The position numbers and the translations under genes were made by a program. From the NCBI GenBank assembly GCA_964016885.1, contig OZ024744.1:110856001-110920000 (forward strand): a stretch of DNA of 64,000 bases, in the 5' to 3' direction. The notes beneath the pieces are model-generated. The model worked only from the letters and a program-made list of their open reading frames with translations. It had not been told where the DNA came from and ran no database searches. This document shows positions 1-64,000 of this stretch, one piece after another. Every line of letters starts with the position of its first letter. Within the stretch, counting starts at the first letter, position 1. Source of the DNA: Eledone cirrhosa (Eukaryota).

Positions 1-2610
1 GAAAACAGTAGAACTACACAATCCACTATAAGTTACCTTGCCCTGAACACATTAAAACTACACGATCCACTATAACTTACCTTGCACTGAACACAGTAAA
101 ACTACACTATCCACTATAAATTACCTTGCTCTGAACACAGAAAAAATACACAATCCACTATAACTTAACTGGCCCTGAACACAGTAAACTACAGAATCTA
201 CTATAACTTACCTTGCCAAGAACAAAGTAAAACTACGTAATCCACTATACCTTACCTTGCCCTGAACACAGTAAAACTACACAATCCACTATAGCTTACG
301 TTGTTCTGAACACAGTAAAACTACACAATCCATTCTAGCTGACTTTGCACTGAACACAGAAAAACTACACAATCCACTATAACTTACATTGCCATGAACA
401 CAGTAAAAATACACAATCCACTATAACTTAACTGGCCCTGAACACAGTAAACTACAGAATCTACTATAACTTACCTTGCCCAGAACAAAGTAAAACTACA
501 CAAACCACTATAAATTACCTTGCTCTAAACACAGTAAAACTACACAATCCACTATAACTTACCTTGCCCTGAACACAGTAAAACTACACAATCCACTATA
601 ACTTAACTGGGCCTGAACACAGTAAAACTACACAATCCACTATAAATTACCTTGCCCTGAACACAGTAAAACTACACAATCCACTATAACTTACTTTGCC
701 ATCAACACAGTAAAACTACACAATCCACTATAACTTACCTTGCCCTGAACACATTAAAACTACACAATCCACTATAACTTACCTTGCCCTGAACACAGTA
801 AAACTACACAATCCACTATAAATTACCTTGCCCTGAACACAGTAAAACTACACAATCCACTATAACTTAACTGGCCAGGAACACAGTAAAACTACACAAT
901 CCACTATAACTTACCTTGCTCTGAACACAGTAAAACTACACAATCCACTATAACTTACCTTGCCCTGAATACAGTAAAACTAAACAATCCACTATAACTT
1001 ACATTGCCCTGAACACAGTAAATCTAATTAATTCACTACAAACTTACCTTGCCCTGAACACAGTAAAACTACACAATACACTATACCTAAAATCTAATTA
1101 ATGCACTACAAACTTACCTTGCCCTGAACACAGTAAAACTACACAATCCACTATAAATTACCTTGCCCTGAACACAGTAAAACTACACAATCCACTATAA
1201 CTTAACTGGCCCTGAACACAGTAAAACTACACAATCCACCATACCTTACCTTGCCCTGAACACAGTAAAATTACACAATCCACTATAACTTAACTGGCCC
1301 TGAACACAGTAAACTACAGAATCCACTATAACTAACCTTGCCCAGAACAAATTAAAACTACGTAATCCATTATACCTTACCTTGCCCTGAACACAGTAAA
1401 ACTAAACAATCCACTATAGCTTACATTGCTCTGAACACAGTAAAACTACACAATCCACTATAGCCTACCTTGCCCTGAACACAGTAAAACTACGTAATCC
1501 ACTATAACTTACCTTGCCCTGAACACAGTAAAACTACAGAATCCACTATAACTTACCTTGCCCAGAACAAAGTAAAACTACGTAATCCACTATAACTTAC
1601 CTTGCCCTGAACACAGTAAAACTACACAATCCACTATAGCTTACCTTGCCCTGAAAACACTGAAACTACACAATCCACTATAACTTACCTTGCCCTGATC
1701 ACAGGAAATCTACAGAATCACTATAACTTTTTTTGCCCTGAACACAGTAAAACTACACAAACCACTATAAATTACCTTGCTCTAAACACAGTAAAGCTAG
1801 ACAATCCACTATAACTTTCCTTGCCCTGAACACAGTAAAACTACACAATCCACTATAACTTAACTGGCCCTGAACACAGTAAAACTACACAATCCACTAT
1901 AACTTAACTGGCCCTGAACCCACTAAACTACAGAATCCACTATAACTTACCTTGTTCTGAACACAGGAAAACTACACATTCCTCTATAACTTAACTGGCC
2001 CTGAACACAGTAAAACTACACAATCCACTATAACTTACCTTGCCCTGAACACAGTAAAACTACAAAATTCACTATAACTTGCATTGCCCTGAACACAGTA
2101 AAACTACACAAACGACTATAAATTACCTTGCCCTGAACACAGTAAAACTACACAATCCACTATAGTTTACCTTGCCCTGAACACAGAAAAACTACTTAAT
2201 TCACTATAACTTACCTTGCCCTGAACACAGTAAAACTACACAATCCAATATACCTTACCTTGCCCTGAACATAGTAAAACTACACAATCCACTATACCTT
2301 ACCTTGCCCTTAACACAGTAAAACTACACAATCCACTATAGCTTACATTGCTCTGAACACAGTAAAACTACACCTTCCACTATAGCTTAGCTTGCCCTGA
2401 AAACAGTAGAACTACACAATCCACTATAAGTTACCTTGCCCTGAACACAGTAAAACTACACGATCCACTATAACTTACCTTGCACTGAACACAGTAAAAC
2501 TACACAATCCACTATAAATTATCTTGCTCTGAACACAGTAAAACTACACAATTCAATATAACTTACCTTGCACTGAACACAGTAAAACTACTTAATTCAC
2601 TATAACTTAC

Positions 2611-2660
2611 CTTGCCCTGAACACAGTAAAACTACACAATCCACTATAACTTACCTTGCC
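2611..2660 (-). other. Splice-site-like motif pair within the monomer (example copy): donor AAG|GTAAGT and acceptor TTTTACTGTGTTCAG|G
   Basis: The reverse complement reads GGCAAG (2660-2655) GTAAGTTATAGTGGATTGTGTAGTTTTACTGTGTTCAG (2654-2617, 38 nt) GGCAAG (2616-2611). The match to MAG|GTRAGT and YAG|G is direct. The confidence refers to functional use, which is unproven. Confidence 0.3.
2617..2660 (+). repeat. Representative perfect consensus monomer (44 bp)
   Basis: Read directly: ctga acacagtaaa actacacaat ccactataac ttaccttgcc. Composition 17A, 14C, 10T, 3G (about 39% GC). Confidence 0.97.
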
Positions 2661-5469
2661 CTGAACACTGTAAAACTACACAATCCAATATAACTTACCT
2701 TGCCCTGAACACAGTAAAACTACACAAACTACTATAAATTATCTTGCCCTGAACACAGTAAAACTAAACAATCCACTATACCTTACCTTGCCCTGAACAC
2801 AGTAAAACTACTTAATTCACTATAACTTACCTTGCCCTGAACACAGTAAAACTACACAATCCACTATACCTAACATTGCCCTGAACACAGTAAAACTACA
2901 CAATCCACTATAACTTACCTTGCTCTGAACACAGTAAAACTACACCATCCACTATACCTTACCTTGCCCTGAACACAGTAAAACTACACAATCCACTATA
3001 ACTTAACTGGCACTGAACACAGTAAACTACAGAATCCACTATAACTTACCTTGCCTAGAACAAATTAAAACTACGTAATCCACTATACCGTACCTTGCCC
3101 TGAACACAGTAAAACTACACAATCCACTATAACTTACTTTGCCCTGAACACAGTAAAACTACACAAACAACTATAAATTACCTTGCTCTAAACACAGTAA
3201 AACTACACAATCCACTATAACTTAACTTGCCCTGAACACATTAAAACTACACAATCCACTATAACATACCTTGCCCTGAACCCAGTAAAACTACACAATC
3301 CACTATAAATTACCTTACCCTGAACACAGTAAAACTACACAATCCACTATAACTTACCTTGCCCTGAACACAGTAAAACTACACAATACACTATACCTAA
3401 CCTTGCCCTGAACACATTAATACTACACAATCCACTATAACTTACCTTGTTCTGAACACAGTAAAACTACACAATCCACCATACCTTACCTTGCCCTGAA
3501 CACAGTAAAACTACACAATCCACTATAACTTAACTGGCCCTGAACACAGTAAACTACAGAATCCACTATAACTTACCTTGCCCAGAACAAATTAAAACTA
3601 CGTAATCCAATATACCTTACCTTGCCCTGAACACAGTAAAATTACATAATCCACTATAACTTACCTTGCTCTGAACACAGTAAAACTACACAAACCACTA
3701 TAAATTACCTTGCCCTGAACACAGTAAAACTAAACAATCCACTATAGCTTACATTGCTCTGAACACAGTAAAACTACACAATCCACTATAGCTTACCTTG
3801 CCCTGAACACAGTAAAACTACACGATCCACTATAACTTACCTTGCACTGAACACAATAAAACTAAACAATCCACTATAGCTTACATTGCTCTGAACACAG
3901 TAAAACTACACAATCCACTATAGCTAACCTTGCCCTGAACACAGTAAAACTACACAATCCACTATAACTCACCTTCCCCTGAACACAGTAAAATTACATA
4001 ATCCACTATAACTTACCTTGCTCTGAACACAGTAAAACTACACAAACCACTATAAATTACCTTGCCCTGAACACAGTAAAACTACACAATCCACTATAGT
4101 TTACCTTGCCCTGAACACAGTAAAACTACTTAATTCACTATAACTTACCTTGCCCTGAACACAGTAAAACTACACAATCCAATATACCTTACCTTGCCCT
4201 GAACACAGTAAAACTACACAATCCACTATACCTTACCTTGCCCTTAACACAGTAAAACTACACAATCCACTATAGCTTACGTTGCTCTGAACACAGTAAA
4301 ACTACACCATCCACTATAGCTTAGCTTGCCCTGAAAACAGTAGAACTACACAATCCACTATCAGTTACCTTGCCCTGAACACAGTAAAACTACACGATCC
4401 ACTATAACTTACCTTGCACTGAACACAGTAAAACTACACAATCCACTATAAATTACCTTGCCCTGAACACAGTAAAACTACACAATCCACTATAACTTAA
4501 CTGGCCCTGAACACAGTAAACTACAGAATCCACTATAACTTACCTTGCCCAGAAAAAAGTAAGACTACGTAATCCACTATACCTTACCTTGCCCTGAAGA
4601 CAGTAAAGCTACACAATCCACTATAACTTACCTTGCTCTGAACACAGTAAAACTACACAATCCACTATAGCTTACATTGTTCTGAACACAGTAAAACTAC
4701 ACGATCTACTATAGCTTACCTTGCCCTGAACACAGTAAACTACAGAATCCACTATAACTTACCTTGCCCAGAACAAAGTAAAACTACGTAATCCACTATA
4801 CCTTACCTTGCCCTGATGACAGTAAAGCTACACAATCCACTATAACTTACCTTGCCCCGATCACAGTAAATCTACACAATCCACTATAACTTAACGGGCC
4901 CTGAACACAGTAAAACCATACAATCCACTATAACTTAACTGGCCCTGAACACACTAAACTACAGAATCCAATATAACTTACCTTGCTCTGAACACAGGAA
5001 AACTACACAATCCACTATAAATTACCTAGCTCTGAACACAGTAAAACTACACAATCAACTATAACTTACCTTGCTCTGAACACAGTAAAACTACATAATC
5101 CACTATAACTTACCTTGCCCTGAACACAGTAAAACTACACAATCCACTATAAGTTAACTGGCCCTGAACACAGTAAAACTACACGATCCACTATAGCGTA
5201 CCTTGCCCTGAAAACAGTAAAACTACACGATCCACTATAACTTACCTTGCCCTGAAAACAGTAAAACTACACGATCCACTATAACTTACCTTGCCCCGAT
5301 CACAGTAAATCTACACAATCCACTATAACTTAACGGGCCCTGAACACAGTAAAACCATACAATCCACTATAACTTAACTGGCCCTGAACACACTAAACTA
5401 CAGAATCCAATATAACTTACCTTGCTCTGAACACAGGAAAACTACACAATCCACTATAAATTACCTAGC

Positions 5470-8200
5470 TCTGATCACAGTAAAATTACACAATCACTAT
5501 AACTTTTTTTGCCCTGAACACAGTAAAACTACACAAACCACTATAACTTACGTTGCTCTGAACACAGTAAAACTACACAATCCACTATAACTTACCTTGC
5601 CCTGAACACAGTAAAACTACACAAACCAGTATAAATTACCTTGCCCTGAACACAGTAAAACTACACAATCCACTATAACTTACCTTGCCCTGAACACAGT
5701 AAAACTACACAATCCACTATAAATTACCTTGCTCTAAACACAGTAAAGCTAGACAATCCACTATAACTGAACTGGCCCTGAACACAGTAAAACTACACAA
5801 TCCACTATAAATTACCTTGCCCTGAACACAGTAAAACTACACAATCCACTATAACTTGCCTTACCCTGAACACAGTAAAACTACTTAATTCACTATAACT
5901 TACCTTGCCCTGAACACAGTAAAACTACACAATGCACTATACCTAACCTTGCCCTGAACACAGTAAAACTACACAATCCACTATAACTTAACTGGCCCTG
6001 AACACAGTAAACTACAGAATCCACTATAACTTACCTTGCCCAGAACAAATTAAAACTATGTAATCCACTATACCTTACCTTGCCCTGAACACAGTAAAAC
6101 TACACAATCCACTATAGCTTACATTGCTCTGAACACAGTAAAACTACACAATCCACTATAGCTTACCTTGCCCTGAACACAGTAAAACTACACAATCCAC
6201 TATAACTTACGTTGCCCTGAACACAGTAAACTACAGAATCCACTATAACTTACCTTGCCCAGAACAAAGTAAAACTACGTAATCCACTTTAACTTACCTT
6301 GCCCTGAAAACAGGAAAACTACACAATCCACTATAAATTACCTTGCCCTGATCACACTAAATCTACACAATCACTATAACTTTTTTTGCCCTGAACACAG
6401 TAAAACTACACAAACCACTATAAATTACCTTGCTCTAAACACAGTAAAGCTAGACAATCCACTATAACTTACCTTGCCCTGAACACTGTAAAACTACACA
6501 ATCCACTATAACTTAACTGGCCCTGAACACAGTAAAACTACACAATCCACTATAACTTAACTGGCCCTGAACACACTAAACTACACAATCCATTATAACT
6601 CACCTTGCTCTGAACACAGGAAAACTACACAATCCACTATAACTTAACTGGGCCTGAACACACTAAAACAACACAATCCACTATAAGTTACCTTGCTCTG
6701 AAAACAGTAAAACTACACAATCCACTATAACTTACCTTGCTCTAAACACAGTAAAACTACACAATCCACTATAAATTACCTTGCCCTGATCACAGTAAAA
6801 CTACACAATCACTATAACTTTTTTTGCCCTGAACACAGTAAAACTACACAAACCACTATAACTTACCTTGCTCTGAACACAGTAAAACTACACAATCCAC
6901 TATAACTTACCTTGCCCTGAACACAGTAAAACTACACAAACCACTATAAATTACCTTGCCCTGAACACAGTAAAACTACACAATCCACTATAACTTACCT
7001 TGCCCTGAACACAGTAAAACTACACAAACCACTATAAATTACCTTGCCCTGAACACAGTAAAACTACACAATCCACTATAACTTACCTTGCCCTGAACAC
7101 AGTAAAACTACACAATCCACTATAAATTACCTTGCTCTAAACACAGTAAAGCTAGACAATCCACTATAACTGAACTGGCCCTGAACACAGTAAAACTACA
7201 CAATCCACTATAACTTAACTGGCCCTGAACACAGTAAAACTACACAATCCACTATAACTGAACTGGCCCTGAACACAGTAAAACTACACAATCCACTATA
7301 AATTACCTTGCCCTGAACACAGTAAAACTACACAATCCACTATAACTTGCCTTACCCTGAACACAGTAAAACTACTTAATTCACTATAACTTACCTTGCC
7401 CTGAACACAGTAAAACTACACAATGCACTATACCTAACCTTGCCCTGAACACAGTAAAACTACACAATCCACTATAACTTAACTGGCCCTGAACACAGTA
7501 AACTACAGAATCCACTATAACTTACCTTGCCCAGAACAAATTAAAACTATGTAATCCACTATACCTTACCTTGCCCTGAACACAGTAAAACTACACAATC
7601 CACTATAGCTTACATTGCTCTGAACACAGTAAAACTACACAATCCACTATAGCTTACCTTGCCCTGAACACAGTAAAACTACACAATCCACTATAACTTA
7701 CGTTTCCCTGAACACAGTAAACTACAGAATCCACTATAACTTACCTTGCCCAGAACAAAGTAAAACTACGTAATCCACTATAACTTACCTTGCCCTGAAA
7801 ACAGTAAAACTACACAATCCACTATAAATTACCTTGCCCTGATCACACTAAATCTACACAATCACTATAACTTTTTTTGCCCTGAACACAGTAAAACTAC
7901 ACAAACCACTATAAATTACCTTGCTCTAAACACAGTAAAGCTAGACAATCCACTATAACTTACCTTGCCCTGAACACTGTAAAACTACACAATCCACTAT
8001 AACTTAACTGGCCCTGAACACAGTAAAACTACACAATCCACTATAACTTAACTGGCCCTGAACACACTAAACTACACAATCCATTATAACTTACCTTGCT
8101 CTGAACACAGGAAAACTACACAATCCACTATAACTTAACTGGGCCTGAACACACTAAAACAACACAATCCACTATAAGTTACCTTGCTCTGAAAACAGTA
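5470..8200. repeat. Local tandem block duplication, ~1.3-1.5 kb unit
   Basis: The same ordered variant monomers occur twice. GCTCTAAACACAGTAAAGCTAGAC is at 5731 and 7134 (offset 1403). The segment at 6241 matches 7732 (offset 1491, two extra monomers). Confidence 0.8.
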
Positions 8201-11200
8201 AAACTACACAATCCACTATAACTTAACTGGCCCTGAACACAGTAAAACTACACAATTCACTATAAGCTACCTTGCACTGAACACAGTAAAACTACTTAAT
8301 TCACTATAACTTACCTTGCCCTGAACACAGTAAAACTACACAATCCACTACACCTTACCTTGCCCTGAACACAGTAAAACTACACAATCCACTATAACTT
8401 ACCTTGCTCTGAACACAGTGAAACTACACAATCCACTATAACTTACCTTGCCCTGAACACAGTAAAACTACACAATCCACTTTAACTTACCTTGCCCTGA
8501 ACACTGTAAAACTACACAATCCACTATAACTTACATTGCCCTGAACACAGTAAAACTACACAATCCACTATACCTAACCTTGCCCTGAACACAGTAAAAC
8601 TACACAATCCACTATAACTTACCTTGCTCTGAACACAGTAAAACTACACAATCCACTATACCTTACCTTGCCCTGAACACAGTAAAACTACACGATCCAC
8701 TATAACTTAACTGGCCCTGAACACAGTAAACTACAGAATCCACTATAACTTACCTTGCCCAGAACAAAGTAAAACTACGTAATCCACTATACCGTACCTT
8801 GCCCTGAACACAGTAAAACTACACAATCCACTATAACTTACTTTGCCCTGAACACAGTAAAACTACACAGACAACTATAAATTACCTTGCTCTTAACACA
8901 GTAAAACTACACAATCCACTATAACTTACCTTGCCCTGAACACATTAAAACTACACAATCCACTATAACATACCTTGCCCTGAACACAGTAAAACTACAC
9001 AATCCACTATAAATTACCTTACCCTGAACACAGTAAAACTACACAATCCACTATAACTTACCTTGCCCTGAACACAGTAAAACTACACAATACACTATAC
9101 CTAATCTTGCCCTGAACACATTAATACTACACAATCCACTATAACTTACCTTGCTCTGAACACAGTAAAACTACACAATCCACCATACCTTACGTTGCCC
9201 TGAACACAGTAAAACTACACAATCCACTATAACTTAACTGGCCCTGAACACAGTAAACTACAGAATCCACTATAACTTACCTTGCCCAGAACAAATTAAA
9301 ACTACGTAATCCATTATACCTTACCTTGCCCTGAACACAATAAAACTAAACAATCCACTATAGCTTACATTGCTCTGAACACAGTAAAACTACACAATCC
9401 ACTATAGCTTACCTTGCCCTGAACACAGTAAAACTACGTAATCCACTATAACTTACCTTGCCCTGAACACAGTAAAACTACACAATCCACTATAACCTAC
9501 CATTGCCCTGAACACAGTAAACTACAGAATCCTCTATAACTTACCTTGCCCAGAACAAAGTAAAACTACGTAATCCACTATAACTTACCTTGCCCTGAAC
9601 ACAGTAAAACTAGACAATCCACTATAGCTTACCTTGCCCTGAAAACAGTAAAACTACACAATCCACTATAACTTACCTTGCCCTGATCACAGTAAAACTA
9701 CACAATCACTATAACTTTTTTTGCCCTGAACACAGTAAAACTACACAAACCACTATAAATTACCTTGCTCTAAACACAGTAAAGCTAGACAATCCACTAT
9801 AACTTACCTTGCCCTGAACACAGTAAAACTACACAATCCACTATAACTTAACTGGCCCTGAACACAGTAAAACTACACAATCCACTATAACTTAACTGGC
9901 CCTGAACCCACTAAACTACAGAATCCACTATAACTTACCTTGTTCTGAACACAGGAAAACTACACAATCCACTATAACTTAACTGGTCCTGAACACAGTA
10001 AAACTACACAATCCACTATAACTTACCTTGCCCTGAACACAGTAAAACTACAAAATCCACTATAACTTGCATTGCCCTGAACACAGTAAAACTACACAAA
10101 CCACTATAACTTAACTGGGCCTGAACACACTAAAACAACACAATCCACTATAAGTTACCTTGCTCTGAAAACAGTAAAACTACACAATCCACTATAACTT
10201 AACTGGCCCTGAACACAGTAAAACTACACAATTCACTATAAGCTACCTTGCACTGAACACAGTAAAACTACTTAATTCACTATAACTTACCTTGCCCTGA
10301 ACACAGTAAAACTACACAATCCACTACACCTTACCTTGCCCTGAACACAGTAAAACTACACAATCCACTATAACTTACCTTGCTCTGAACACAGTGAAAC
10401 TACACAATCCACTATAACTTACCTTGCCCTGAACACAGTAAAACTACACAATCCACTTTAACTTACCTTGCCCTGAACACTGTAAAACTACACAATCCAC
10501 TATAACTTACATTGCCCTGAACACAGTAAAACTACACAATCCACTATAGTTTACCTTGCCCTGAACACAGTAAAACTACTTAATTCACTATAACTTACCT
10601 TGCCCAGAACACAGTAAAACTACACAATCCAATATACCTTACCTTGCCCTGAACACAGTAAAACTACACAATCCACTATACCTTACCTTGCCCTTAACAC
10701 AGTAAAACTACACAATCCACTATAGCTTACATTGCTCTGAACACAGTAAAACTACACCTTCCACTATAGCTTAGCTTGCCCTGAAAACAGTAGAACTACA
10801 CAATCCACTATAAGTTACCTTGCCCTGAACACAGTAAAACTACACGATCCACTATAACTTAACTGGCCCTGAACACAGTAAAACTACACAATTCACTATA
10901 AGCTACCTTGCACTGAACACAGTAAAATTACTTAATTCACTATAACTTACCTTGCCCTGAACTCAGTAAAACTACACAATCCACTACACTTTACCTTGCC
11001 CTGAACACAGTAAAACTACACAATCCACTATAACTTACCTTGCTCTGAACACAGTGAAACTACACAATGCACTATAACTTACCTTGCCCTGAACACAGTA
11101 AAACTACACAATCCACTTTAACTTACCTTGCCCTGAACACTGTAAAACTACACAATCCACTATAACTTACATTGCCCTGAACACAGTAAAACTACACAAT

Positions 11201-23200: not shown

Positions 23201-23330
23201 TACCTAGCTCTGAACACAGTAAAACTACACAATCCACTATAACTTACCTTGCTCTGAACACAGTAAAACTACATAATCCACTATAACTTACCTTGCCCTG
23301 AACACAGTAAAACTACACAATCCACTATAA
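8041..23330. repeat. ~7.6 kb tandem higher-order duplication (~8041-15690 and ~15691-23330)
   Basis: Markers: 8061/15703 (offset 7642), TATATGTTACC 12215/19769 (7554), CCCTGATGAC 15347/22989 (7642). The 88-bp changes match two-monomer deletions near 16140 and near 14700. Confidence 0.88.
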
Positions 23331-49500: not shown

Positions 49501-50050
49501 CAGTAAAACTACACAATCCACTATAACTTACCTTGCCCTGAACACAGTAAAACTACACAAACCACTATAAATTACCTTGCTCTAAACACAGTAAAGCTAG
49601 ACAATCCACTATAACTGAACTGGCCCTGAACACAGTAAAACTACACAATCCACTATAACTTAACTGGCCCTGAACACAGTAAAACTACACAATTCACTAT
49701 AACTGAAGTGGCCCTGAACACAGTAAAACTACTTAATTCACTATAACTTACCTTGCCCTGAACACAGTAAAACTACACAATGCACTATACCTAACCTTGC
49801 CCTGAACACAGTAAAACTACACAATCCACTATAACTTAACTGGCCCTGAACACAGTAAACTACAGAATCCACTATAACTTACCTTGCCCAGAACAAATTA
49901 AAACTATGTAATCCACTATACCTTACCTTGCCCTGAACACAGTAAAACTACACAATCCACTATAGCTTACATTGCTCTGAACACAGTAGAACTACACAAT
50001 CCACTATAGCTTACCTTGCCCTGAACACAGTAAAACTACACAACCCACTA
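33000..50050. repeat. Dispersed pairs of a 1053-bp (24-monomer) higher-order repeat
   Basis: The marker ACTGAAGTGGCCC occurs at 33155/34208, 38071/39124, 45271/46324 (offset 1053 each) and 48650/49702 (1052). A single copy lies at 41231. Confidence 0.85.
40110..45000. repeat. ~4.9 kb copy of ~28170-32930 (non-adjacent, ~12 kb offset)
   Basis: Offsets are 28194/40133 (11939), then 30921/42994 and 32364/44437 (12073). The 134-bp difference equals three extra monomers plus a 2-bp C insertion around 41221-41350. Confidence 0.85.
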
Positions 50051-53039
50051 TAACTTACGTTGCCCTAAACACAGTAAACTACAGAATCCACTATAACTTA
50101 CCTTGCCCTGAACAAAGTAAAACTACGTAATCCACTATAACTTACCTTGCCCTGAAAACAGTAAAACTACACAATCCACTATAAATTACCTTGCCCTGAT
50201 CACACTAAATCTACACAATCACTATAACTTTTTTTGCCCTGAACACAGTAAAACTACACAAACCACTATAAATTACCTTGCTCTAAACACAGTAAAGCTA
50301 GACAATCCACTATAACTTACCTTGCCCTGAACACTGTAAAACTACACAATCCACTATAACTTAACTGGCCCTGAACACAGTAAAACTACACAATCCACTA
50401 TAATTTAACTGGCCCTGAACACACTAAACTACACAATCCATTATAACTTACCTTGCTCTGAACACAGGAAAACTACACAATCCACTATAACTTAACTGGG
50501 CCTGAACACACTAAAACAACACAATCCACTATAAGTTACCTTGCTCTGAACACAGTAAAACTACACAATCCACTATAACTTAACTGGCCCTGAACACAGT
50601 AAAACTACACAATTCACTATAAGCTACCTTGCACTGAACACAGTAAAACTACTTAATTCACTATAACTTACCTTGCCCTGAACACAGTAAAACTACACAA
50701 TCCACTACACCTTACCTTGCCCTGAACACAGTAAAACTACACAATCCACTATAACTTACCTTGCTCTGAACACAGTGAAACTACACAATCCACTATAACT
50801 TACCTTGCCCTGAACACAGTAAAACTACACAATCCACTTTAACTTACCTTGCCCTGAACACTGTAAAACTACACAATCCACTATAACTTACATTGCCCTG
50901 AACACAGTAAAACTACACAATCCACTATACCTAACCTTGCCCTGAACACAGTAAAACTACACAATCCACTATAACTTACCTTGCTCTGAACACAGTAAAA
51001 CTACACAATCCACTATAACTTACCTTGCCCTGAACACAGTAAAACTACACAATCCACTATAACTTAACTGGCCCTGAACACAGTAAACTACAGAATCCAC
51101 TATAACTTACCTTGCCCAGAACAAAGTAAAACTACGTAATCCACTATACCGTACCTTGCCCTGAACACAGTAAAACTACACAATCCACTATAACTTACTT
51201 TGCCCTGAACACAGTAAAACTACACAAACAACTATAAATTACCTTGCTCTTAACACAGTAAAACTACACAATCCACTATAACTTACCTTGCCCTGAACAC
51301 ATTAAAACTACACAATCCACTATAACATACCTTGCCCTGAACCCAGTAAAACTACACAATCCACTATAAATTACCTTACCCTGAACACAGTAAAACTACA
51401 CAATCCACTATAACTTACCTTGCCATGAACACAGTAAAACTACACAATACACTATACCTAATCTTGCCCTGAACACATTAATACTACACAATCCACTATA
51501 ACTTACCTCGCTCTGAACACAGTAAAACTACACAATCCACCATACCTTACCTTGCCCTGAACACAGTAAAATTACACAATCCACTATAACTTAACTGGCC
51601 CTGAACACAGTAAACTACAGAATCCACTATAACTTACCTTGCCCAGAACAAATTAAAACTACGTAATCCATTATACCTTACCTTGCCCTGAACACAATAA
51701 AACTAAACAATCCACTATAGCTTACATTGCTCTGAACACAGTAAAACTACACAATCCACTATAGCTTACCTTGCCCTGAACACAGTAAAACTACGTAATC
51801 CACTATAACTTACCTTGCCCTGAACACAGTAAAACTACACAATCCACTATAACCTACCATTGCCCTGAACACAGTAAACTACAGAATCCTCTATAACTTA
51901 CCTTGCCCAGAACAAAGTAAAACTACGTAATCCACTATAACTTACCTTGCCCTGAACACAGTAAAACTACACAATCCACTATAGCTTACCTTGCCCTGAA
52001 AACAGTAAAACTACACAATCCACTATAACTTACCTTGCCCTGATCACAGTAAAACTACACAATCACTATAACTTTTTTTGCCCTGAACACAGTAAAACTA
52101 CACAAACCACTATAAATTACCTTGCTCTAAACACAGTAAAGCTAGACAATCCACTATAACTTACCTTGCCCTGAACACAGTAAAACTACACAATCCACTA
52201 TAACTTAACTGGCCCTGAACACAGTAAAACTACACAATCCACTATAACTTAACTGGCCCTGAACCCACTAAACTACAGAATCCACTATAACTTACCTTGT
52301 TCTGAACACAGGAAAACTACACAATCCACTATAACTTAACTGGTCCTGAACACAGTAAAACTACACAATCCACTATAACTTACCTTGCCCTGAACACAGT
52401 AAAACTACAAAATCCACTATAACTTGCATTGCCCTGAACACAGTAAAACTACACAAACCACTATAAATTACCTTGCCCTGAACACAGTAAAACTACACAA
52501 TCCACTATAGTTTACCTTGCCCTGAACACAGTAAAACTACTTAATTCACTATAACTTACTTTGCCCTGAACACACTAAAACTACACAATCCAATATACCT
52601 TACCTTGCCCTGAACACAGTAAAACTACACAATCCACTATACCTTACCTTGCCCTTAACACAGTAAAACTACACAATCCACTATAGCTTACATTGCTCTG
52701 AACACAGTAAAACTACACCTTCCATTATAGCTTAGCTTGCCCTGAAAACAGTAGAACTACACAATCCACTATAAGTTACCTTGCCCTGAACACAGTAAAA
52801 CTACACGATCCACTATAACTTACCTTGCACTGAACACAGTAAAACTACACAATCCACTATAAATTATCTTGCTCTGAACACAGTAAAAATACACAATCCA
52901 CTATAACTTAACTGGCCCTGAACACAGTAAACTACAGAATCCACTATAACTTAACTGGCCCTGAACACAGTAAAACTACAGAATCCACTCTAAGTTACCT
53001 TGCTCTGAACACAGTAAACTACAGAATCCACTATAACTT

Positions 53040-56000
53040 ACCTTGCCCTGAACACATTAAAACTACACAATCCACTATAACTTACCTTGCTCTGAACACA
53101 GTAAACTACGTAATCCACTATAACTTACCTTGCTCTGAACACAGTAAACTACAGAATCCACTATAACTTGCCTTGCCCAGAACAAAGTAAAACTACGTAA
53201 TCCACTATACCTTACCTTGCCCTGAACACAGTAAAACTACACAATCCACTATAACTTACCTTGCCCTGAAGACAGTAAAGCTACAAAATCCACTATAACT
53301 TACCTTGCACTGAACACAGTAAAACTACACAGTCCACTATAACTTACCTTGCCCTGAAGACAGTAAAGCTACACAATCCACTATAACTTACCTTGCTCTG
53401 AACACAGTAAAACTACGTGATCCACTATACCTTACCTTGCCCTGAACACAGTAAAACTACACAATCCACTATAACTTACATTGCCCTGAACACAGTAAAA
53501 CTACATAATCCACTATAAATTACCTTGCCCTGAACACAGTAAAACTACACAATCCACTATAAGTTACCTTGCTCTGAACACAGTAAAACTACATAATCCA
53601 CTATAACTTAACTGGCTCTGAACACAGTAAAACTACACAATCCACTATAACTTAACTGGCCCTGAACACAGTAAAATTACACAATCCACTATAACTGAAC
53701 TGGCCCTGAACACAGTAAACTGCAGGATCCACTATAACTTACCTTGCTCTGAACACAGTAAAACTACACAATCCACTATAACGTAACTGGCCCTGAACAC
53801 AGTAAACTGCAGGATCCACTATAACCTACCTTGCTCTGAACACAGTAAAACTACACAATCCAATATAACTTAACTGGCCCTGAACACATTAAAACTACAC
53901 AATCCACTATAACTTACTTTGCCCTGAACACAGTAAAACTACACAAACAACTATAACTTACCTTGCTCTAAACACAGTAAAACTACACAATCCACTATAA
54001 CTTACCTTGCCCTGAACACATTAAAACTACACAATCCACTATAACTTATCTTGCCCTGAACACAGTAAAACTACAAAATCCACTATAACTTAACTGGCCC
54101 TGAACACAGTAAAACTACACGATCCTCTATAACTTACCTTGCCCTGAACAATTTAAAACTACACAATCCACTATAACTTACCTTGCCCTGAACACAGTAA
54201 AACTACACAATCCACTATAAATTACCTTACCCTGAACACAGTAAAACTACACAATCCACTATAGCGTACCTTGCCCTGAAAACAGTAAAACTACACAATC
54301 CACTATAACTTACCTTGCCCTGATCACAGTAAAACTACACAATCACTATAACTTTTTTTGCCCTGAACACAGTAAAACTACACAAACCACTATAAATTAC
54401 CTTGCTCTAAACACAGTAAAGCTAGACAATCCACTATAACTTACCTTGCCCTGAACACAGTAAAACTACACAATCCACTATAACTTAACTGGCCCTGAAC
54501 ACATTAAAACTACACAATCCACTATAACTTACCTTGCTCTGAACACAGTAAACTACGTAATCCACTATAACTTACCTTGCTCTGAACACAGTAAACTACA
54601 GAATCCACTATAACTTGCCTTGCCCAGAACAAAGTAAAACTACGTAATCCACTATACCTTACCTTGCCCTGAACACAGTAAAACTACACGATCCTCTATA
54701 ACTTACCTTGCCCTGAACAATTTAAAACTACACAATCCACTATAACTTACCTTGCCCTGAAGACAGTAAAGCTACACAATCCACTATAACTTACCTTGCA
54801 CTGAACACAGTAAAACTACACAGTCCACTATAACTTACCTTGCCCTGAAGACAGTAAAGCTACACAATCCACTATAACTTACCTTGCTCTGAACACAGTA
54901 AAACTACGTGATCCACTATACCTTACCTTGCCCTGAACACAGTAAAACTACACAATCCACTATAACTTACATTGCCCTGAACACAGTAAAACTACATAAT
55001 CCACTATAAATTACCTTGCCCTGAACACAGTAAAACTACACAATCCACTATAAGTTACCTTGCTCTGAACACAGTAAAACTACATAATCCACTATAACTT
55101 AACTGGCTCTGAACACAGTAAAACTACACAATCCACTATAACTTAACTGGCCCTGAACACAGTAAAATTACACAATCCACTATAACTGAACTGGCCCTGA
55201 ACACAGTAAACTGCAGGATCCACTATAACTTACCTTGCTCTGAACACAGGAAAACTACACAATCCACTATAACTTAACTGGCTCTGAACACAGTAAAACT
55301 ACACAATCCACTATAACGTAACTGGCCCTGAACACAGTAAACTGCAGGATCCACTATAACCTACCTTGCTCTGAACACAGTAAAACTACACAATCCAATA
55401 TAACTTAACTGGCCCTGAACACATTAAAACTACACAATCCACTATAACTTACTTTGCCCTGAACACAGTAAAACTACACAAACAACTATAACTTACCTTG
55501 CTCTAAACACAGTAAAACTACACAATCCACTATAACTTACCTTGCCCTGAACACATTAAAACTACACAATCCACTATAACTTATCTTGCCCTGAACACAG
55601 TAAAACTACACAATCCACTATAACTTAACTGGCCCTGAACACAGTAAAACTACACGATCCACTATAACTTACCTTGCCCTGAACAATTTAAAACTACACA
55701 ATCCACTATAACTTACCTTGCCCTGAACACAGTAAAACTACACAATCCACTATAAATTACCTTACCCTGAACACAGTAAAACTACACAATCCACTATAGC
55801 GTACCTTGCCCTGAAATCAGTAAAACTACACAATCCACTATAACTTACCTTGCCCTGATCACAGTAAAACTACACAATCACTATAACTTTTTTTGCCCTG
55901 AACACAGTAAAACTACACAAACCACTATAAATTACCTTGCTCTAAACACAGTAAAGCTAGACAATCCACTATAACTTACCTTGCCCTGAACACAGTAAAA

Positions 56001-56040
56001 CTACACAATCCACTATAACTTAACTGGCCCTGAACACATT
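53040..56040. repeat. ~1.5 kb tandem duplication carrying private variants
   Basis: CTGCAGGATCC occurs at 53720/55211 (offset 1491) and 53807/55342 (1535). ACTACGTGATCC, CACAGTCCACT and GAACAATTTAAAAC were seen only in this interval. Confidence 0.85.
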
Positions 56041-59000
56041 AAAACTACACAATCTACTATAAGTTACCTTGCTCTGAACACAGTAAAACTACACAATCCA
56101 CTATAACTTAACTGACCCTGAACACAGTAAAACTACACCATCCACTATAACTTACCTTGCCGTGAACACAGTAAAACTAAACAATCCACTATAACTTACA
56201 TTGCCCTGAACACAGTAAAACTACACAAACCACCACAAATTACCTTGCCCTGAACACAGTAAAATTACACGATCCACTATAGTTTACCTTGCCCTGAACA
56301 CAGTAAAACTACACAAACCACTATAAATTACCTTGCCCTGAACACAGTAAAACTACACAATCCACTATAACTTGCCTTACCCTGAACACAGTAAAACTAT
56401 TTAATTCACTATAACTTACCTTGCCCTGAACACAGTAAAACTACACAATGCACTATACCTAACCTTGCTCTGAACACAGTAAAACTACACAATCCACTAT
56501 AACTTACCTTGCTCTGAACACAGTAAAACTACACAATCCACTATAACTTAACTGGCCCTGAACACAGTAAAACTACACAATCCACTATAACTTAACTGGC
56601 CCTGAACACAGTAAAACTACACAATCCACTATAACTTAACTGGCCATGAACACAGTAAAACTACACAATTCACTATAAGTTACCTTGCTCTGAACACAGT
56701 AAAACTACACAATCCACTATAACTTACCTTGCCCTGAACACAGTAAAACTACAAAATGCACTATAACTTACATGGCCCTGAACACAGTAAAACTACACAA
56801 TCCACTATAAATTACCTTGCCCTGAACACAGTAAAACTACACAATCCACTATAACTTAACTGGCCCTGAACACAGTAAAACTACACAATCACTATAACTT
56901 AACTTGCTCTGAACACAGTAAAACTACACTATCCACTATAACTTAACTGGCCCTGAACACAGTAAAACTACAGAATCCACTATAACTTAACTTGCCCTGA
57001 ACATACTAAAACAACACAATCACTATAACTGAACTGGACCTGAACACAGTGAAACTACACAATCCACTATAACTTAACTTGCTCTGAACACAGTAAAACT
57101 ACACAATCCACTATAACTTAACTGGCCCTGAACACAGTAAAACTACACCATCCACTATAACTTAACTGGCCCTGAACACAGTAAAATTACACAATCCACT
57201 ATAACTTAACTGGCCCTGAACACAGTAAAACTACACAATCCACTATAACTTAACTGGCCCTGAACGCAGTAAAATTACACAATCCACTATAACTTAACTT
57301 GCTCTGAACACAGTAAAACTACACAATCCACTATAACTTAACTGGCCCTGAACACAGTAAAACTACACCATCCACTATAACTTACCTTGCCGTGAACACA
57401 GTAAAACTAAACAATCCACTATAACTTACATTGCCCTGAACACAGTAAAACTACACAAACCACCAGAAATTACCTTGCCCTGAACACAGTATAATTACAC
57501 AATCCACTATAGTTTACCTTGCCCTGAACACAGTAAAACTACACAAACCACTATAGTTTACCTTGCCCTGAACACAGTAAAACTACACAAACCACTATAA
57601 ATTACCTTGCCCTGAACACAGTAAAACTACACAATCCACTATAACTTACCTTGCTCTGAACACAGTAAAACTACACAATCCACTATACCTTACCTTGCCC
57701 TGAACACAGTAAAACTACACAATCCACTATAACTTAACTGGCCCTGAACACAGTAAACTACAGAATCCACTATAACTTACCTTGCCCAGAACAAATTATA
57801 ACTATGTAATCCACTATAACTTACCGTGCCGTGAACACAGTAAAACTACACAATCCACTATAACTTACTTTGCCCTTAACACAGTAAAACTACACAAACC
57901 ACTATAAATTACCTTGCCCTGAAAACAGTAAAACTACACAATCCACTATAAATTACCTTGTCCTGAAAACAGTAAAACTACACAATCCACTATAAATTAC
58001 CTTGCCCTGAACACAGTAAAACTACACAATCCACTATAACTTACTTTGCCATGAACACAGTAAAACTGCACAATCCACTATAACTGAACTGGCCTTGAAC
58101 ACAGTAACACTACACAATGCACTATAACTTAACTGGCCCTGAACACAGTAAAACTACACAATCCACTATAACTTAACTGGCCCTGAACACATTAAAACTA
58201 CACAATCCACTATAAGTTACCTTGCTCTGAACACAGTAAAACTACACAATCCACTATAACTTACCTTGCCCTGAAAACAGTAAAACTACACAATCCACTA
58301 TAACTTACCTTGCCCTGATCACAGTAAAACTACACAATCACTATAAATTACCTTGCTCTAAACACAGTAAAGCTAGACAATCCACTATAACTTACCTTGC
58401 CCTGAACACAGTAAAACTACACAATCCACTATAACTTAACTGGCCATGAACACAGTAAAACTACACAATCCACTATAACTTAACTGGCCCTGAACGCAGT
58501 AAAACTACACAATCCACTATAACTTAACTGGCCCTGAACACAGTAAAACTACACAATCCACTATAACTTACCTTGCCCTGAACACAGTAAAACTACAAAA
58601 TCCACTATAACTTACATTGCCTTGATCACAGTAAAACTACACAAACCACTATAAATTACCTTGCCTTGAACACAGTAAAACTACACAATCCACTATAGCT
58701 TACCTTGCCCTGAAAACAGTAAAACTAAACAATCCACTATAACTTACATTGCCCTGAACACAGTAAAACTACACAAACCACCAGAAATTACCTTGCCCTG
58801 AACACAGTAAAATTACACAATCCACTATAGTTTACCTTGCCCTGAACACAGTAAAACTACTTAATTCACTATAACTTACCTTGCCCTGAACACAGTAAAA
58901 CTACACTATGCACTATACCTAACCTTGCCCTGAACACAGTAAAACTACACAATCCACTATAACTTACCTTGCCCAGAACAAATTAAAACTATGTAATCCA

Positions 59001-62000
59001 CTATACCTTACCTTGCCCTGAACACAGTAAAACTACACAATTCACTATAGCTTACATTGCTCTGAACACAGTAAAACTACACAATCCACTATAGCTTACC
59101 TTGCCCTGAACACAGTAAAACTACACAATCCAGTATAACTTACCTTACCCTGAACACAGTAAAACTACACAATCCACTATAACTTACCTTGCCCTGAACA
59201 CAGTAAACTACAGAATCCACTATAACTTACCTTGCCCAGAACAAAGTAAAACTACGTAATCCACTATAACTTACCTTGACCTGAAAACAGTAAAACTACA
59301 GAATCCACTATAACTTACCTTGCCCTGATCACACTAAATCTGCACAATCACTATAACTTTTTTTGCCCTGAACACAGTAAAACTTCAGAAACCACTATAA
59401 ATTACCTTGCTCTAAACACAGTAAAACTACACAATCCACTATAACTTAACTGGCCCTGAACACACTAAACTACAGAATCCACTATAACTTACCTTGCTCT
59501 GAACACAGTAAAACTACACAACCCACTATAACTTAACTGGGACTGAACACAGTAAAACAACACAATCCACTATAAGTTACCTTGCTCTGAACACAGTAAA
59601 ACTGCACAATCCACTATAACTTAACTGGCCCTGAACACAGTAAAACTACACAATTCACTATAAGTTACCTTGCTCTGAACACAGTAAAACTACACAATCC
59701 ACTATAACTTAACTGGCCATGAACACAGTAAAACTACACAATCCACTATAACTTACCTTGCCCTGAACACAGTAAAACTACAAAATCCACTATAACTTAC
59801 ATTGCCCTGAACACAGTAAAACTACACAAACCACTATAAATTACCTTGCTCTGAACACAGTAAAACTACACAATCCACTATAGTTTACCTTGCCCTGAAC
59901 ACAGTCAAACTACACAATCCACTATAACTTACCTTGTCCTGAACACAGTAAAACTACTTAATTCACTATAACTTACCTTGCCCATTAACACAGTAAAACT
60001 ACACAATCCACTATACCTTACCTTGCCCTGAACACAGTAAAACTACACAATCCACTATAACTTACCTTGCTCTGAACACAGTGAAACTACACAATCCACT
60101 ATAACTTACCTTGCCCTGAAGACAGTAAAACTACACAATCCACTATAACTTACCTTGCCCTGAACACTGTAAAACTACACAATCCACTATAACTTACATT
60201 GCCCTGAACACAGTAAAACTACACAAACCACTATAAATTACCTTGCCCTGAACACAGTAAAACTACACAATCCACTATACCTTACCTTGCCCTGAACACA
60301 GTAAAACTACTTAATTCACTATAACTTTCCTTGCCCTGAACACAGTAAAACTACACAATCCACTATACCTAACCTTGCCCTGAACACAGTAAACTACACA
60401 TTCCACTATAACTTACCTTGCTCTGAACACAGTAAAACTACACAATCCACTATACCTTACCTTGCCCTGAACACAGTAAAAGTACACAATCCACTATAAC
60501 TTAACTGGCCCTGAACACAGTAAACTACAGAATCCACTATAACTTACCTTGCCCAGAACAAATTAAAACTACGTAATCCACTATACCGTACCTTGCCCTG
60601 AACACAGTAAAACTACACAATCCACTATAACTTACTTTGCCCTGAACACAGTAAAACTACACAAACAACTATAAATTACCTTGCTCTAAACACAGTAAAA
60701 CTACACAATCCACTATAACTTACCTTGCCCTGAACACATTAAAAGTACACAATCCACTATAACATACCTTGCCCTGAACCCAGTAAAACTACACAATCCA
60801 CTATAAATTACTTTGCCCTGAACACAGTAAAACTACACAAACCACTATAAATTACCTTGCCCTGAAAACAGTAAAACTACACAATCCACTATAAATTACC
60901 TTGCCCTGAAAACAGTAAAACTACACAATCCACTATAAATTACCTTGCCCTGAACCGAGTAAAACTAAACAATCCACTATAACTTACCTGGACCTGAACA
61001 CAGTAAAACTACACAATCCACTATAACTTAACTGGCCCTGAACACAGTAAAACTACACAATCCACTATAACTTAACTGGACCTGTACACAGTAAAACTAA
61101 ACAATCCACTATAGCTTACCTTGCCCTGAAAACAGTAAGACTAGACAATCCACTATAACTTACCTTGCCCTGATCACAGTAAAACTACATAATCACTATA
61201 AATTACCTTGCTCTAAACACAGTAAAGCTAGACAATCCACTATAACTTACCTTGCCCTGAACACAGTAAACTACAGAATCCACTATAACTTACCTTGCCC
61301 AGAATAAAGTAAAACTACGTAATCCACTATAACTTACCTTGACCTGAAAACAGTAAAACTACAGAATCCACTATAACTTACCTTGCCCTGATCACACTAA
61401 ATCTGCACAATCACTATAACTTTTTTTGCCCTGAACACAGTAAAACTTCACAAACCACTATAAATTACCTTGCTCTAAACACAGTAAAGCTAGACAATCC
61501 ACTATAACTTACCTTGCCCTGAACACAGTAAAACTACACAATCCACTATAACTTAACTGGGACTGAACACAGTAAAACAACACAATCCACTATAAGTTAC
61601 CTTGCTCTGAACACAGTAAAACTACACAATCCACTATAACTTAACTGGCTCTGAACACAGTAAAACTACACAATTCACTATAAATTACCTTGCTCTGAAC
61701 ACAGTAAAACTACACAATCCACTATAACTTAACTGGCCATGAACACAGTAAAACTACACAATCCACTATAACTTACCTTGCCCTGAACACAGTAAAACTA
61801 CACAATCCACTATAACTTACCTTGCCCTGAACACAGTAAAACTACACAATCCACTATAATTTACCTTGCTCTGAACACAGTGAAACTACACAATCCACTA
61901 TAACTTACCTTGCCCTGAACACAGTAAAACTACACAATCCACTATAACTTAACTGGCCCTGAACACAGTAGAACTACACAATCCACTATAACTTACCTTG

Positions 62001-64000
62001 CCCTGATCACAGTAAAACTACATAATCACTATAACTTACCTTGCCCTGAACACAGTAAAGCTAGACAATCCACTATAACTTACCTGGCCCTGAACACAGT
62101 AAAACTACACAATCCACTATAACTTAACTGGCCCTGAACACAGTAAAACTACACAATCCACTATAACTTACCTTGCCCTCAACACAGTAAAACTACACAA
62201 ACCACTATAACTTAACTGGCCCTGAACACAGTAAAACTACACAAACCACTATAAATTACCTTGCCCTGAACACAGTAAAACTACATAATCCACTATAGTT
62301 TACCTTGCCCTGAACACAATAAAACTACACAATCCACTATGAATTAACTTGCCCTGAACACAGTAAAACTACACAATCCACTATAAATTACCTTGCCCTG
62401 AACACAGTAAAACTACACAATCCACTATAACTTACCTTGACCTGAACACAGTAAAACTACTTAATTCACTATAACTTACCTTGCCCTGAACACAGTAAAA
62501 CTACACAATCCACTATAACTTAACTGGCCCTGAACACAGTAAAACTACACGATCCACTATAACTTACCTTGCCCTGAACACAGTAAAACTACACAATCCA
62601 CTATAACTTAACTGGGCCTGAACACAGTAAAACAACACAATCCACTATAAGTTACCTTGCTCTGAACACAGTAAAACTACACAATCCACTATAACTTAAC
62701 TGTCCCTGAACACAGTAAAACTACACAATTCACTATAAGTTACCTTGCTCTGAACACAGTAAAACTACACAATCCACTATAACTTAACTGGCCATGAACA
62801 CAGTAAAACTACACGATCCACTATAACATACCTTGCCCTGAACAGAGTAAAACTACACAATCCACTATAACTTACCTGGACCTGAACACAGTAAAACTAC
62901 ACAATCCACTATAAGTTACCTTGCTCTGAACACAGTAAAACTACACAATCCACTATAACTTACCTTGCCCTGAACACAGTAAAGCTAGACAATCCACTAT
63001 AACTTACTTTGCACTGAACACAGTAAAACTACACAATCCACTATAACTTACTTTGCCATGAACACAGTAAAACTACACAATCCACTATAACTTAACTGGC
63101 CCTGATCACAGTAAAACTACACAATCCACTATAACTTACTTTGCCATGAACAGAGTAAAACTACACAATCCACTATAACTTACTTTGCCATGAACAGAGT
63201 AAAACTACACAATCCACTATAGCTTACCTTGCCCTGAAAACAGTAAAACTACACAATCCACTATAACTTAACTGGCCCTGATCACAGTAAAACTACACAA
63301 TCCACTATAACTTACTTTGCCATGAACAGAGTAAAACTACACAATCCACTATAACTTACTTTGCCATGAACAGAGTAAAACTACACAATCCACTATAGCT
63401 TATCTTGCCCTGAAAACAGTAAAATTACACAATCCACTATAACTTACCTTGCCCTGAACACAGTAAAACTACACAATCCACTATAACTTAACTGGCCCTG
63501 AACACAGTAAAACTACACAATCCACTATAACTTACCTTGCTCTGAACACAGTAAAACTACACGATCCACTATAACTTACCTTGCCCGGAACAGAGTAAAA
63601 CTACACAACCCACTATAACTTACCTTGCCCTGAACACAGTAAAACTACAAAATCCACTATAACTTACATTGCCCTGAACACAGTAAAACTACACAAACCA
63701 CTATAAATTACCTTGCCCTGAACACAGTAAAACTACACAATCCACTATAGTTTACCTTGCCCTGAACACAGTCAAACTACACAATCCACTATAACTTACC
63801 TTGCCCTGAACACAGTAAAACTACTTAATTCACTATAACTTACCTTGCTCCGAACACAGTAAAACTACACAATCCACTATACCTTACCTTGCCCTGAACA
63901 CAGTAAAAGTACACAATCCACTATAGTTTACCTTGCCCTGAACACAGTAAAACTACACAAACCACTATAGTTTACCTTGCCCTGAACACAGTAAAACTAC
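56040..64000. repeat. More divergent, weakly ordered zone of the same satellite
   Basis: Many rare variants occur here (GCCGTGAAC, GGGACTGAAC, GACCTGAA, AACAGAGT, AACGCAGT, CACCAGAAATT). Only short duplications are seen (offsets 1230, 2063, 176), and the core markers (CTGATGAC, CTGAAGTGG, TCTGCACACGG) are absent. Confidence 0.75.

What the first reader, a model, noticed from the sequence alone, without database searches (positions are those of the whole stretch)
1..64000. Minus-strand monomer is a complete mini exon-intron unit: GGCAAG|GTAAGT...TTCAG| repeated over a thousand times
Seen: the reverse complement of the consensus is GGCAAG GTAAGTTATAGTGGATTGTGTAGTTTTACTGTGTTCAG. It has a perfect major-spliceosome donor (AAG|GTAAGT), and 38 nt later a T-rich tract ending TTCAG|G. 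A YTNAY-like TTTAC is present, but its A is only 11 nt from the 3' end, closer than usual. Established: MAG|GTRAGT pairs with U1 snRNA; AG|GT juxtaposition defines recursive splice points; U1 binding suppresses premature polyadenylation in long transcripts; 38-nt introns are too short for vertebrates but near the lower range for nematodes and tunicates. Inference: the satellite may be an amplified microexon with its splice sites, a U1-loading or recursive-splicing array in a giant intron or lncRNA, or a splicing-factor sink. A chance match in the founding monomer would look the same after amplification, so the copies are not independent evidence.
Basis: partly seen in the sequence, partly recalled or inferred. 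Interest (0 to 1): 0.75.

Follow-up and report, generated by a model that had tools for sequence, protein, structure and literature searches.

The report
Retrotransposon-born octopus satellite with splice look-alikes
This is a one-megabase array of a 44-letter repeat, on what is likely an octopod sex chromosome, that matches the tail of a Penelope-type jumping gene and likely grew out of it; its strong splice-site match is real but likely incidental, although it would attract splicing factors if that strand were ever transcribed.

Summary
The window is 1,457 copies of a 44-bp unit whose minus strand reads GGCAAG|GTAAGT...TTCAG. Against 37 introns of this genome the donor outscores all 37, the acceptor is mid-range, and 0.03% of shuffles match the pair. 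The interpretation mostly fails. The window lies in a 1.05-Mb satellite of about 23,900 units on contig C28 of an octopod genome; C28 carries Amnionless and is probably Z. The unit matches the 3' end of a dispersed Penelope-like retroelement (41 of 43 aligned letters), and a copy of that element runs into the array's left edge. The splice-like strand is antisense to the element, which already reads AAG|GTAAGA. So this is not an amplified host microexon. The 38-nt 'intron' is under half the shortest real intron found (89 nt). Splice positions are no better kept than other positions, and the commonest unit in the window has lost its GT. No host-gene exon was found in the flanks tested. RNA could not be tested. 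Left open: transcription on that strand would give a donor-dense, poly(A)-signal-free RNA like chicken LL2R, which gathers splicing factors in oocytes.

The parts
1..64000 (.). 44-bp satellite, 1,457 full units; central part of a 1,052,392-bp array at G000 C28:110,166,774-111,219,165 (about 23,900 units)
921..964 (-). One exact consensus unit (64 such in the window); matches the 3' end of a Penelope-like element read antisense
953..961 (-). Donor-like AAG|GTAAGT; 8 of 9 letters already present in the element's antisense strand (AAG|GTAAGA)
959..964 (-).
921..958 (-).
921..940 (-). Acceptor-like T-rich tract ending TTCAG; scores 8.8 bits here and -1.5 in the element, the gain coming from a deletion in the middle of the unit
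833..876 (-). Example of the commonest unit in the window (97 copies), with the donor GT changed to TT

Best explanation
The window is part of a 1.05-Mb single-orientation satellite whose 44-bp unit matches the 3' end of a dispersed Penelope-like retroelement and likely arose from it by a small tandem duplication plus deletions; the splice-like motifs on the antisense strand are likely incidental passengers and likely not spliced as a 6-nt exon and 38-nt intron. Shown: the array and its ends, the match to the element, an element copy abutting the left edge, the donor-like sequence in dispersed copies, and free variation of the splice positions among units. Inferred: a ~63-bp stretch between two CTATA words was duplicated and lost about 9 bp and about 10 bp; this turned GTAAGA into GTAAGT and moved a T-run up to the AG; the unit then spread by unequal exchange and kilobase-scale duplications (local repeat lags of mostly 30-130 units), as satellites do, on a chromosome crowded with other satellites.
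For: Origin: the left flank belongs to a dispersed family, and in other copies the monomer-like sequence follows downstream. Monomer versus element consensus: 41 of 43 aligned letters, score 48 against a mean of 19.4 and maximum 37 in 2,000 shuffles. Of 37 copies, 14 read AAG|GTAAGA and 2 AAG|GTAAGT on the antisense strand. Identity of the element: a profile of 4 ORF remnants hit 276 proteins at E<=0.001; 9 of 10 tested carry RVT_1, and 2 of 10 also GIY-YIG on the matched C-terminal stretch. A minimal hammerhead layout follows the ORF (layout from PMC4209133). No protection of the sites: in the window +1 G, +6 T and +5 G are the 2nd, 3rd and 5th most variable of 44 positions (22%, 22%, 18%; median 3.9%). 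Over 4,881 units the nine splice positions deviate 7.5% against 6.4% for same-base positions (P=0.75; core four 6.8% against 6.2%, P=0.67). The perfect donor falls from 71% (left, 1,848 units) to 30% (centre, 2,664) and 62% (right, 369). Geometry: 38 nt against a minimum of 89 nt in 37 introns. Context: of 150 flank frames scanned, 4 hit Pfam and all 4 are transposon domains; many other satellites lie on C28.
Against: The pair is rare: 0.03-0.055% under two nulls, the best of 35 families. Inheritance explains the donor but not the acceptor. Both sites are stronger in the satellite than in the element (10.3 to 12.6 bits, and -1.5 to 8.8), and only 0.9% of 43,890 simulated units cut from the same 3' end reach donor >=10 with acceptor >=8, and 0.03% the observed scores. 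The +2 T is among the least variable positions (1.0% over 4,881 units). 65-94% of units per sample still hold a usable donor. Skipping one unit gives an 82-nt intron, close to the sizes seen here, and 1,027 of 1,456 neighbouring pairs allow it. The minus strand has no AATAAA in the window or in 150 kb of samples, although its composition makes that likely anyway. Variants spread in blocks, so units are not independent and the conservation test is rough. About a fifth of the array was read, and the host-gene scan covered 150 of 317 frames in the nearest flanks only.
Confidence: 0.7

Rival explanations
1. LL2R-like array: at some stage (most likely germ line) the minus strand is read through from a neighbouring retroelement, and the RNA, with a strong donor every 44 nt and no poly(A) signal, binds U1 and other splicing factors, splices poorly and forms a locus-bound condensate, whether selected or not.
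For: Donor beats 37 of 37 real donors; no AATAAA on that strand; single orientation over 1 Mb; a decayed L1/Tx1-like LINE lies 0.7-3.8 kb upstream and points into the array; precedent in chicken LL2R (bioRxiv 10.64898/2026.03.19.712899; abstract, passages and section 32 read). Compatible with the Penelope origin.
Against: No transcription shown. The upstream LINE is broken, 67-85% identical to other copies, has no matched 5' part, and 4 AATAAA lie on the minus strand within 4 kb upstream of the array, one 350 bp from it. Donor-damaging variants have spread in the centre. LL2R has a threefold excess of donors and relatives across Galliformes; here the consensus has one donor and one acceptor per unit, and conservation across species was not tested.
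Confidence: 0.2
2. Functional recursive-splicing or anti-termination array inside a giant intron of a minus-strand gene or a Z-linked long non-coding RNA.
For: C28 carries Amnionless, which is Z-linked in Octopus vulgaris, where sex-specific Z lncRNAs exist (bioRxiv 10.1101/2024.12.09.627507, passages). Satellite-filled megabase introns are known in Drosophila (PMC6508621, PMC11207136; search listing only).
Against: No AG|GT ratchet geometry at the acceptor; sites not conserved; only transposon hits in 150 flank frames; Zmast and Zfest are 18 kb and 13.8 kb, and Zfest lies at Amnionless, 54 Mb from this array. By inference, thousands of strong cryptic sites would disrupt a host gene.
Confidence: 0.07
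3. Amplified host microexon with its own splice sites, processed into (GGCAAG)n RNA.
For: The unit reads as acceptor, 6 nt, donor; 6 nt keeps frame.
Against: The unit maps to a retroelement end present in dozens of dispersed copies, antisense to its ORF; 38 nt is below every intron measured; the 'exon' is among the most variable parts.
Confidence: 0.03

Closest known systems
Satellites and tandem repeats derived from Penelope-like elements, including non-LTR retrozymes (bioRxiv 10.64898/2026.07.22.740005, passages read)
   Same: A tandem unit taken from the pLTR-type end of a Penelope-like element and amplified locally.
   Different: Retrozyme units hold the hammerhead. This 44-bp unit lies about 300 bp downstream of the hammerhead-like core and has none (no Rfam match in window 1-3000). 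It forms one megabase array plus one 24-copy outlier.
Chicken LL2R tandem repeat (bioRxiv 10.64898/2026.03.19.712899; abstract, passages, section 32)
   Same: Single-locus array, donor-rich on one strand, lacking poly(A) signals on that strand, with a LINE next to the upstream end.
   Different: LL2R is about 446 bp x 360 (160 kb), shown to be transcribed and to bind snRNPs, with relatives across Galliformes. This is 44 bp x about 23,900 with a far higher donor density; transcription is untested and the upstream LINE is decayed. The same paper reports that 41-bp chicken repeats lack snRNPs.
Recursive splice (ratchet) points and satellite-filled giant introns of Drosophila (definition recalled; PMC6508621 and PMC11207136 seen in listing only)
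   Same: Megabase repeat tract; acceptor and donor motifs close together.
   Different: Acceptor and donor are 6 nt apart, not adjacent; thousands of unconserved copies; no host gene found.

Membership tests
Satellite DNA derived from a transposable element | Long head-to-tail array of one unit | tested here: met
   Ends at C28:110,166,774 and 111,219,165; all internal samples are the repeat; 5,703 exact 22-mer matches against about 5,330 interpolated
Satellite DNA derived from a transposable element | Local homogenisation into domains and higher-order blocks | tested here: met
   Nearest 5-unit blocks differ 0.2-4% against 7-12% for random unit pairs; left, centre and right domains differ in variants
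Satellite DNA derived from a transposable element | Unit homologous to a dispersed element | tested here: met
   41 of 43 aligned letters; score 48 against shuffle maximum 37 of 2,000; element copy at the left edge
Penelope-like element (source element) | RT with C-terminal GIY-YIG endonuclease | tested here: met
   Indirect: 5 decayed frames gave no relevant Pfam hit; their profile matched the C-terminus of proteins with RVT_1 (9 of 10) and GIY-YIG (2 of 10). No RT was found in 10 extended copies, which share only about 1.3 kb
Penelope-like element (source element) | Minimal hammerhead downstream of the ORF | tested here: inconclusive
   Consensus has helix I, CTGATGA, an unpaired A, helix II, GAAA and a palindromic loop; CTGATGA letters kept in 30-35 of 36 copies. 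Rfam lists no hammerhead; 4 of 37 copies keep core plus helix II intact; cleavage not tested
Penelope-like element (source element) | 5' truncation with inverted copies of the end | tested here: met
   Inverted second matches of the 3' segment in several loci, e.g. L077, L082, L083, L087, L098, L099; described in PMC8557442 (passages)
Penelope-like element (source element) | Spliceosomal intron in the pLTR, sense strand | tested here: inconclusive
   A 204-nt GT-AG candidate on the sense strand (donor 7.7, acceptor 4.9 bits); prediction only, and on the strand opposite to the finding
Functional intron / microexon unit | Strong donor and acceptor by a species model | tested here: met
   Donor above 37 of 37, acceptor above 16 of 37
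Functional intron / microexon unit | Intron within the organism's size range | tested here: not met
   38 nt against a minimum of 89 nt in 37 introns of two genes; small sample; an 82-nt skip of one unit is near the range
Functional intron / microexon unit | Splice positions conserved above background | tested here: not met
   7.5% against 6.4% deviation, P=0.75; +2 T alone is well kept
Functional intron / microexon unit | Junction or lariat reads | not testable with these tools
   The three runs available behave as DNA
Recursive splice point | Acceptor AG directly followed by GT | tested here: not met
   Sequence shows TTCAG|GGCAAG|GT, 6 nt apart
Recursive splice point | Inside a long intron of a same-strand gene | tested here: inconclusive
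   150 of 317 unmasked flank frames scanned; 4 hits, all transposon; exons further out not tested
LL2R-like splicing-factor-loading repeat | Donor-dense strand lacking poly(A) signals | tested here: met
   0 AATAAA on the minus strand in the window and 150 kb of samples; 17 and 48 on the plus strand
LL2R-like splicing-factor-loading repeat | Upstream retroelement promoter pointing into the array | tested here: inconclusive
   Decayed L1/Tx1-like copy in that orientation, 5' part unmatched, 4 AATAAA within 4 kb upstream of the array
LL2R-like splicing-factor-loading repeat | Strand-specific transcription and snRNP recruitment | not testable with these tools

The most novel reading that the evidence does not exclude
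A Z-linked megabase satellite born from a Penelope end is transcribed on its antisense strand and presents about 20,000 near-perfect U1 sites, forming a splicing-factor condensate whose dose differs between ZZ males and ZO females: an invertebrate LL2R at far higher donor density, with both splice sites improved at the satellite's birth.
Probability: 0.12. Interest if true: 0.78.

Novelty: new member of a known kind. Interest (0 to 1): 0.33.

Why it matters
As read here, it is a clean, traceable case of a megabase satellite growing out of the end of a Penelope-like element, with a parent-family copy still joined to the array, on a probable cephalopod Z chromosome. That is useful for satellite and sex-chromosome work but not surprising. 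It also shows how a one-in-a-few-thousand motif match can be inherited and then multiplied. If the minus strand is transcribed, it would be an unusually dense natural array of U1 sites and a direct test of whether repeat RNA can sequester splicing factors in a sex-dependent dose.

Tried and rejected
RNA: no RNA holder listed for window 1-4000; this is no evidence on expression. The three holders (one sample, share 0.25) gave contigs that run unspliced through two short myosin introns, so they behave as DNA, possibly the assembly's own source. Direct naming of the element's ORF remnants failed: 5 frames gave no relevant Pfam family, and a word-seeded search gave none of 17 candidates; the profile search worked. 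Rfam found no hammerhead in 9 element loci and nothing in window 1-3000. The C3 outlier as the founding copy in a gene: rejected, as it sits in another satellite behind a LINE 5' fragment and carries centre-type variants. Array inserted into a single element with matching halves on both sides: no such match between the flanks. Link to Zmast or Zfest: none found. A second counter ('CTGANGA present 0') looked in the wrong offset and is not used. Two loci were dropped before the 37-copy counts: L107 (duplicate of L052) and L110 (poorly anchored). One Amnionless exon pair was skipped for a gap, leaving 37 introns; a possible 76-nt intron seen by eye is not protein-anchored and not counted. Three look-ups of earlier findings returned nothing. 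Paper searches found no description of this satellite, no octopus minimum intron size in the listing, nothing for a satellite/recursive-splicing combination, and nothing on Sepia lampbrush chromosomes (their existence is recalled only and not used). Supplements of the bioRxiv papers were not seen.
Full report
Observation. The window is a single 44-bp tandem array from end to end, with flat composition. GT and AG are both intact in 1,029 of 1,457 units, a perfect AAG|GTAAGT with YAG in 469, and the exact consensus in 64; the commonest unit (97 copies) has TT in place of GT.

Is it more than chance? For one monomer, yes. A perfect donor occurs in 0.9% of 100,000 circular dinucleotide shuffles, and with an acceptor in 0.16%. 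I built species matrices from 37 introns fixed by aligning Octopus proteins to two genes of this genome. The donor scores above 37 of 37 real donors and the acceptor above 16 of 37; the summed score is reached by 0.03% of 20,000 shuffles and 0.055% of random genomic 44-mers, while a merely usable pair turns up in 15.6% and 6.4%. Among 35 tandem families sampled in this genome it is the best, and 4 of 35 have a usable pair. This counts against dismissing the finding. It is still one sequence, chosen after the fact in a scan of very many windows.

Where it lies. The window is G000 C28:110,856,001-110,920,000 in a 3.0-Gb genome. The array runs from 110,166,774 to 111,219,165, about 23,900 units. 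All internal samples are the same repeat, and an exact 22-mer occurs 5,703 times on the minus strand against about 5,330 interpolated from the samples; about a fifth of the array was read. The 6 plus-strand matches are a 24-copy outlier on C3. An Amnionless exon is 82-84% identical to Octopus bimaculoides and O. sinensis and 70% to Argonauta, so the host is an octopod. The three Amnionless matches are on C28, and this gene is Z-linked in O. vulgaris (bioRxiv 10.1101/2024.12.09.627507, passages), so C28 is probably Z; this rests on one marker. Many spot samples of C28 between 101 and 120 Mb are other satellites.

Origin. The 360 bp left of the array belong to a dispersed family. In other copies the sequence continues into a single stretch that holds both halves of the monomer. 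The monomer aligns to the family consensus at 41 of 43 letters with gaps in the middle, score 48 against a shuffle maximum of 37 in 2,000. The family carries an ORF remnant whose profile hits 276 proteins; of 10 tested, 9 have RVT_1 and 2 also GIY-YIG on the matched C-terminal part, and the best hit is an O. bimaculoides protein. Downstream lies a layout that fits the minimal hammerhead of Penelope-like elements (PMC4209133, first quarter read), and several copies have an inverted second end (PMC8557442, passages). It is therefore a Penelope-like element, found as 5'-truncated pieces of about 1.3 kb. The splice-like strand is antisense to its ORF and ribozyme-like motif. On that strand 14 of 37 copies read AAG|GTAAGA and 2 AAG|GTAAGT. 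The donor was thus largely inherited. The acceptor was not: it scores -1.5 in the element and 8.8 in the satellite, and only 0.9% of 43,890 simulated units from the same end reach donor >=10 with acceptor >=8. I read that gain as luck; this is an inference.

Are the sites kept? No. In the window, +1 G, +6 T and +5 G are the 2nd, 3rd and 5th most variable of 44 positions. Over 4,881 ungapped units from 18 samples, the nine splice positions deviate 7.5% against 6.4% for same-base positions (P=0.75), and the four core letters 6.8% against 6.2% (P=0.67). The +2 T alone is well kept, at 1.0%. The perfect donor is in 71% of left-domain units, 30% of central units and 62% of right-edge units, and variants travel in blocks of mostly 30-130 units, so units are not independent and the test is rough.

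Could it be spliced? The 38-nt unit is under half the shortest of the 37 introns (89 nt). It has a second AG within 20 nt of the end, as 3 of 37 real acceptors do, and more G in the tract than any of the 37. Skipping one unit gives 82 nt, near the range, and 1,027 of 1,456 neighbouring pairs permit that. The acceptor AG and donor GT are 6 nt apart, which is not ratchet-point geometry (definition recalled).

Is there a host transcript? In about 55 kb left and about 53 kb of the right flank (a 12-bp satellite skipped), 150 of 317 unmasked frames were scanned; the 4 Pfam hits are transposon domains. Distant exons are not excluded. A decayed L1/Tx1-like LINE 0.7-3.8 kb upstream points into the array, but its 5' part is unmatched and four AATAAA lie on that strand within 4 kb upstream of the array. 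The array's minus strand has no AATAAA in the window or in 150 kb of samples. RNA could not be tested: the available runs behave as DNA.

Comparison. Penelope ends are known sources of tandem repeats (bioRxiv 10.64898/2026.07.22.740005, passages); this unit lacks the ribozyme and is not a retrozyme. This array meets LL2R's sequence features but none of its functional ones has been tested.

Verdict. A Penelope-derived megabase satellite on a probable octopod Z with incidental splice-like motifs (0.70). An LL2R-like transcribed array, selected or not (0.20), a functional array in a giant intron or lncRNA (0.07) and an amplified host microexon (0.03) follow. New member of a known kind; interest 0.33.

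Noticed in passing
L006:1924-4190 (G000 C3:162,496,924-162,499,190): A 24-copy outlier of the 44-bp repeat sits inside a 23-bp satellite, behind a piece that matches C12 and a 380-bp 5' fragment of a young, widespread LINE (93-99% identical copies; RTE-type by recalled motif). It looks like a templated composite insertion and carries centre-type variants.
   Followed up: partly
G000 C28:56,351,442-56,394,054 (L132-L134): Amnionless lies on C28, which is 136 Mb and out of size order among the contigs. It is probably a Z chromosome much enlarged by satellites (12-, 15-, 22-, 37-, 39-, 42-, 48-, 59-, 64-, 69- and 422-bp units seen between 101 and 120 Mb).
   Followed up: partly
L028:4570-4615 (G000 C28:110,166,570) and loci L072-L101: Minimal hammerhead-like motif downstream of the element's ORF, with a palindromic loop; not detected by Rfam. 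It is followed by a degenerate (CTAACC)-like tract resembling telomere repeats.
   Followed up: partly
Consensus of L072-L101, sense strand: A 204-nt GT-AG candidate intron between the hammerhead-like motif and the satellite's source segment, in the place where Penelope elements carry an intron.
   Followed up: partly
L005-L008 (G000 C3:162.478-162.515 Mb): The 23-bp satellite contains TAG|GTAA after a C-rich tract, a literal AG|GT juxtaposition, but scores poorly with the species matrices (donor 3.6, acceptor -6.7).
   Followed up: yes
G000 C28:110.17-110.53, 110.64-111.15 and 111.20-111.22 Mb: The array has three variant domains; the edges are closer to the consensus than the centre.
   Followed up: partly
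L034:7165-7200 (G000 C28:111,219,165): The right end is a degenerate unit joined directly to the tail of a very common short dispersed repeat (SINE-like; label recalled).
   Followed up: no
L044:2680-6249 (G000 C28:111,314,680-111,318,250): A 1,190-codon open frame with endonuclease, RT and zf-RVT domains: a nearly intact L1/Tx1-like LINE 95 kb right of the array.
   Followed up: no
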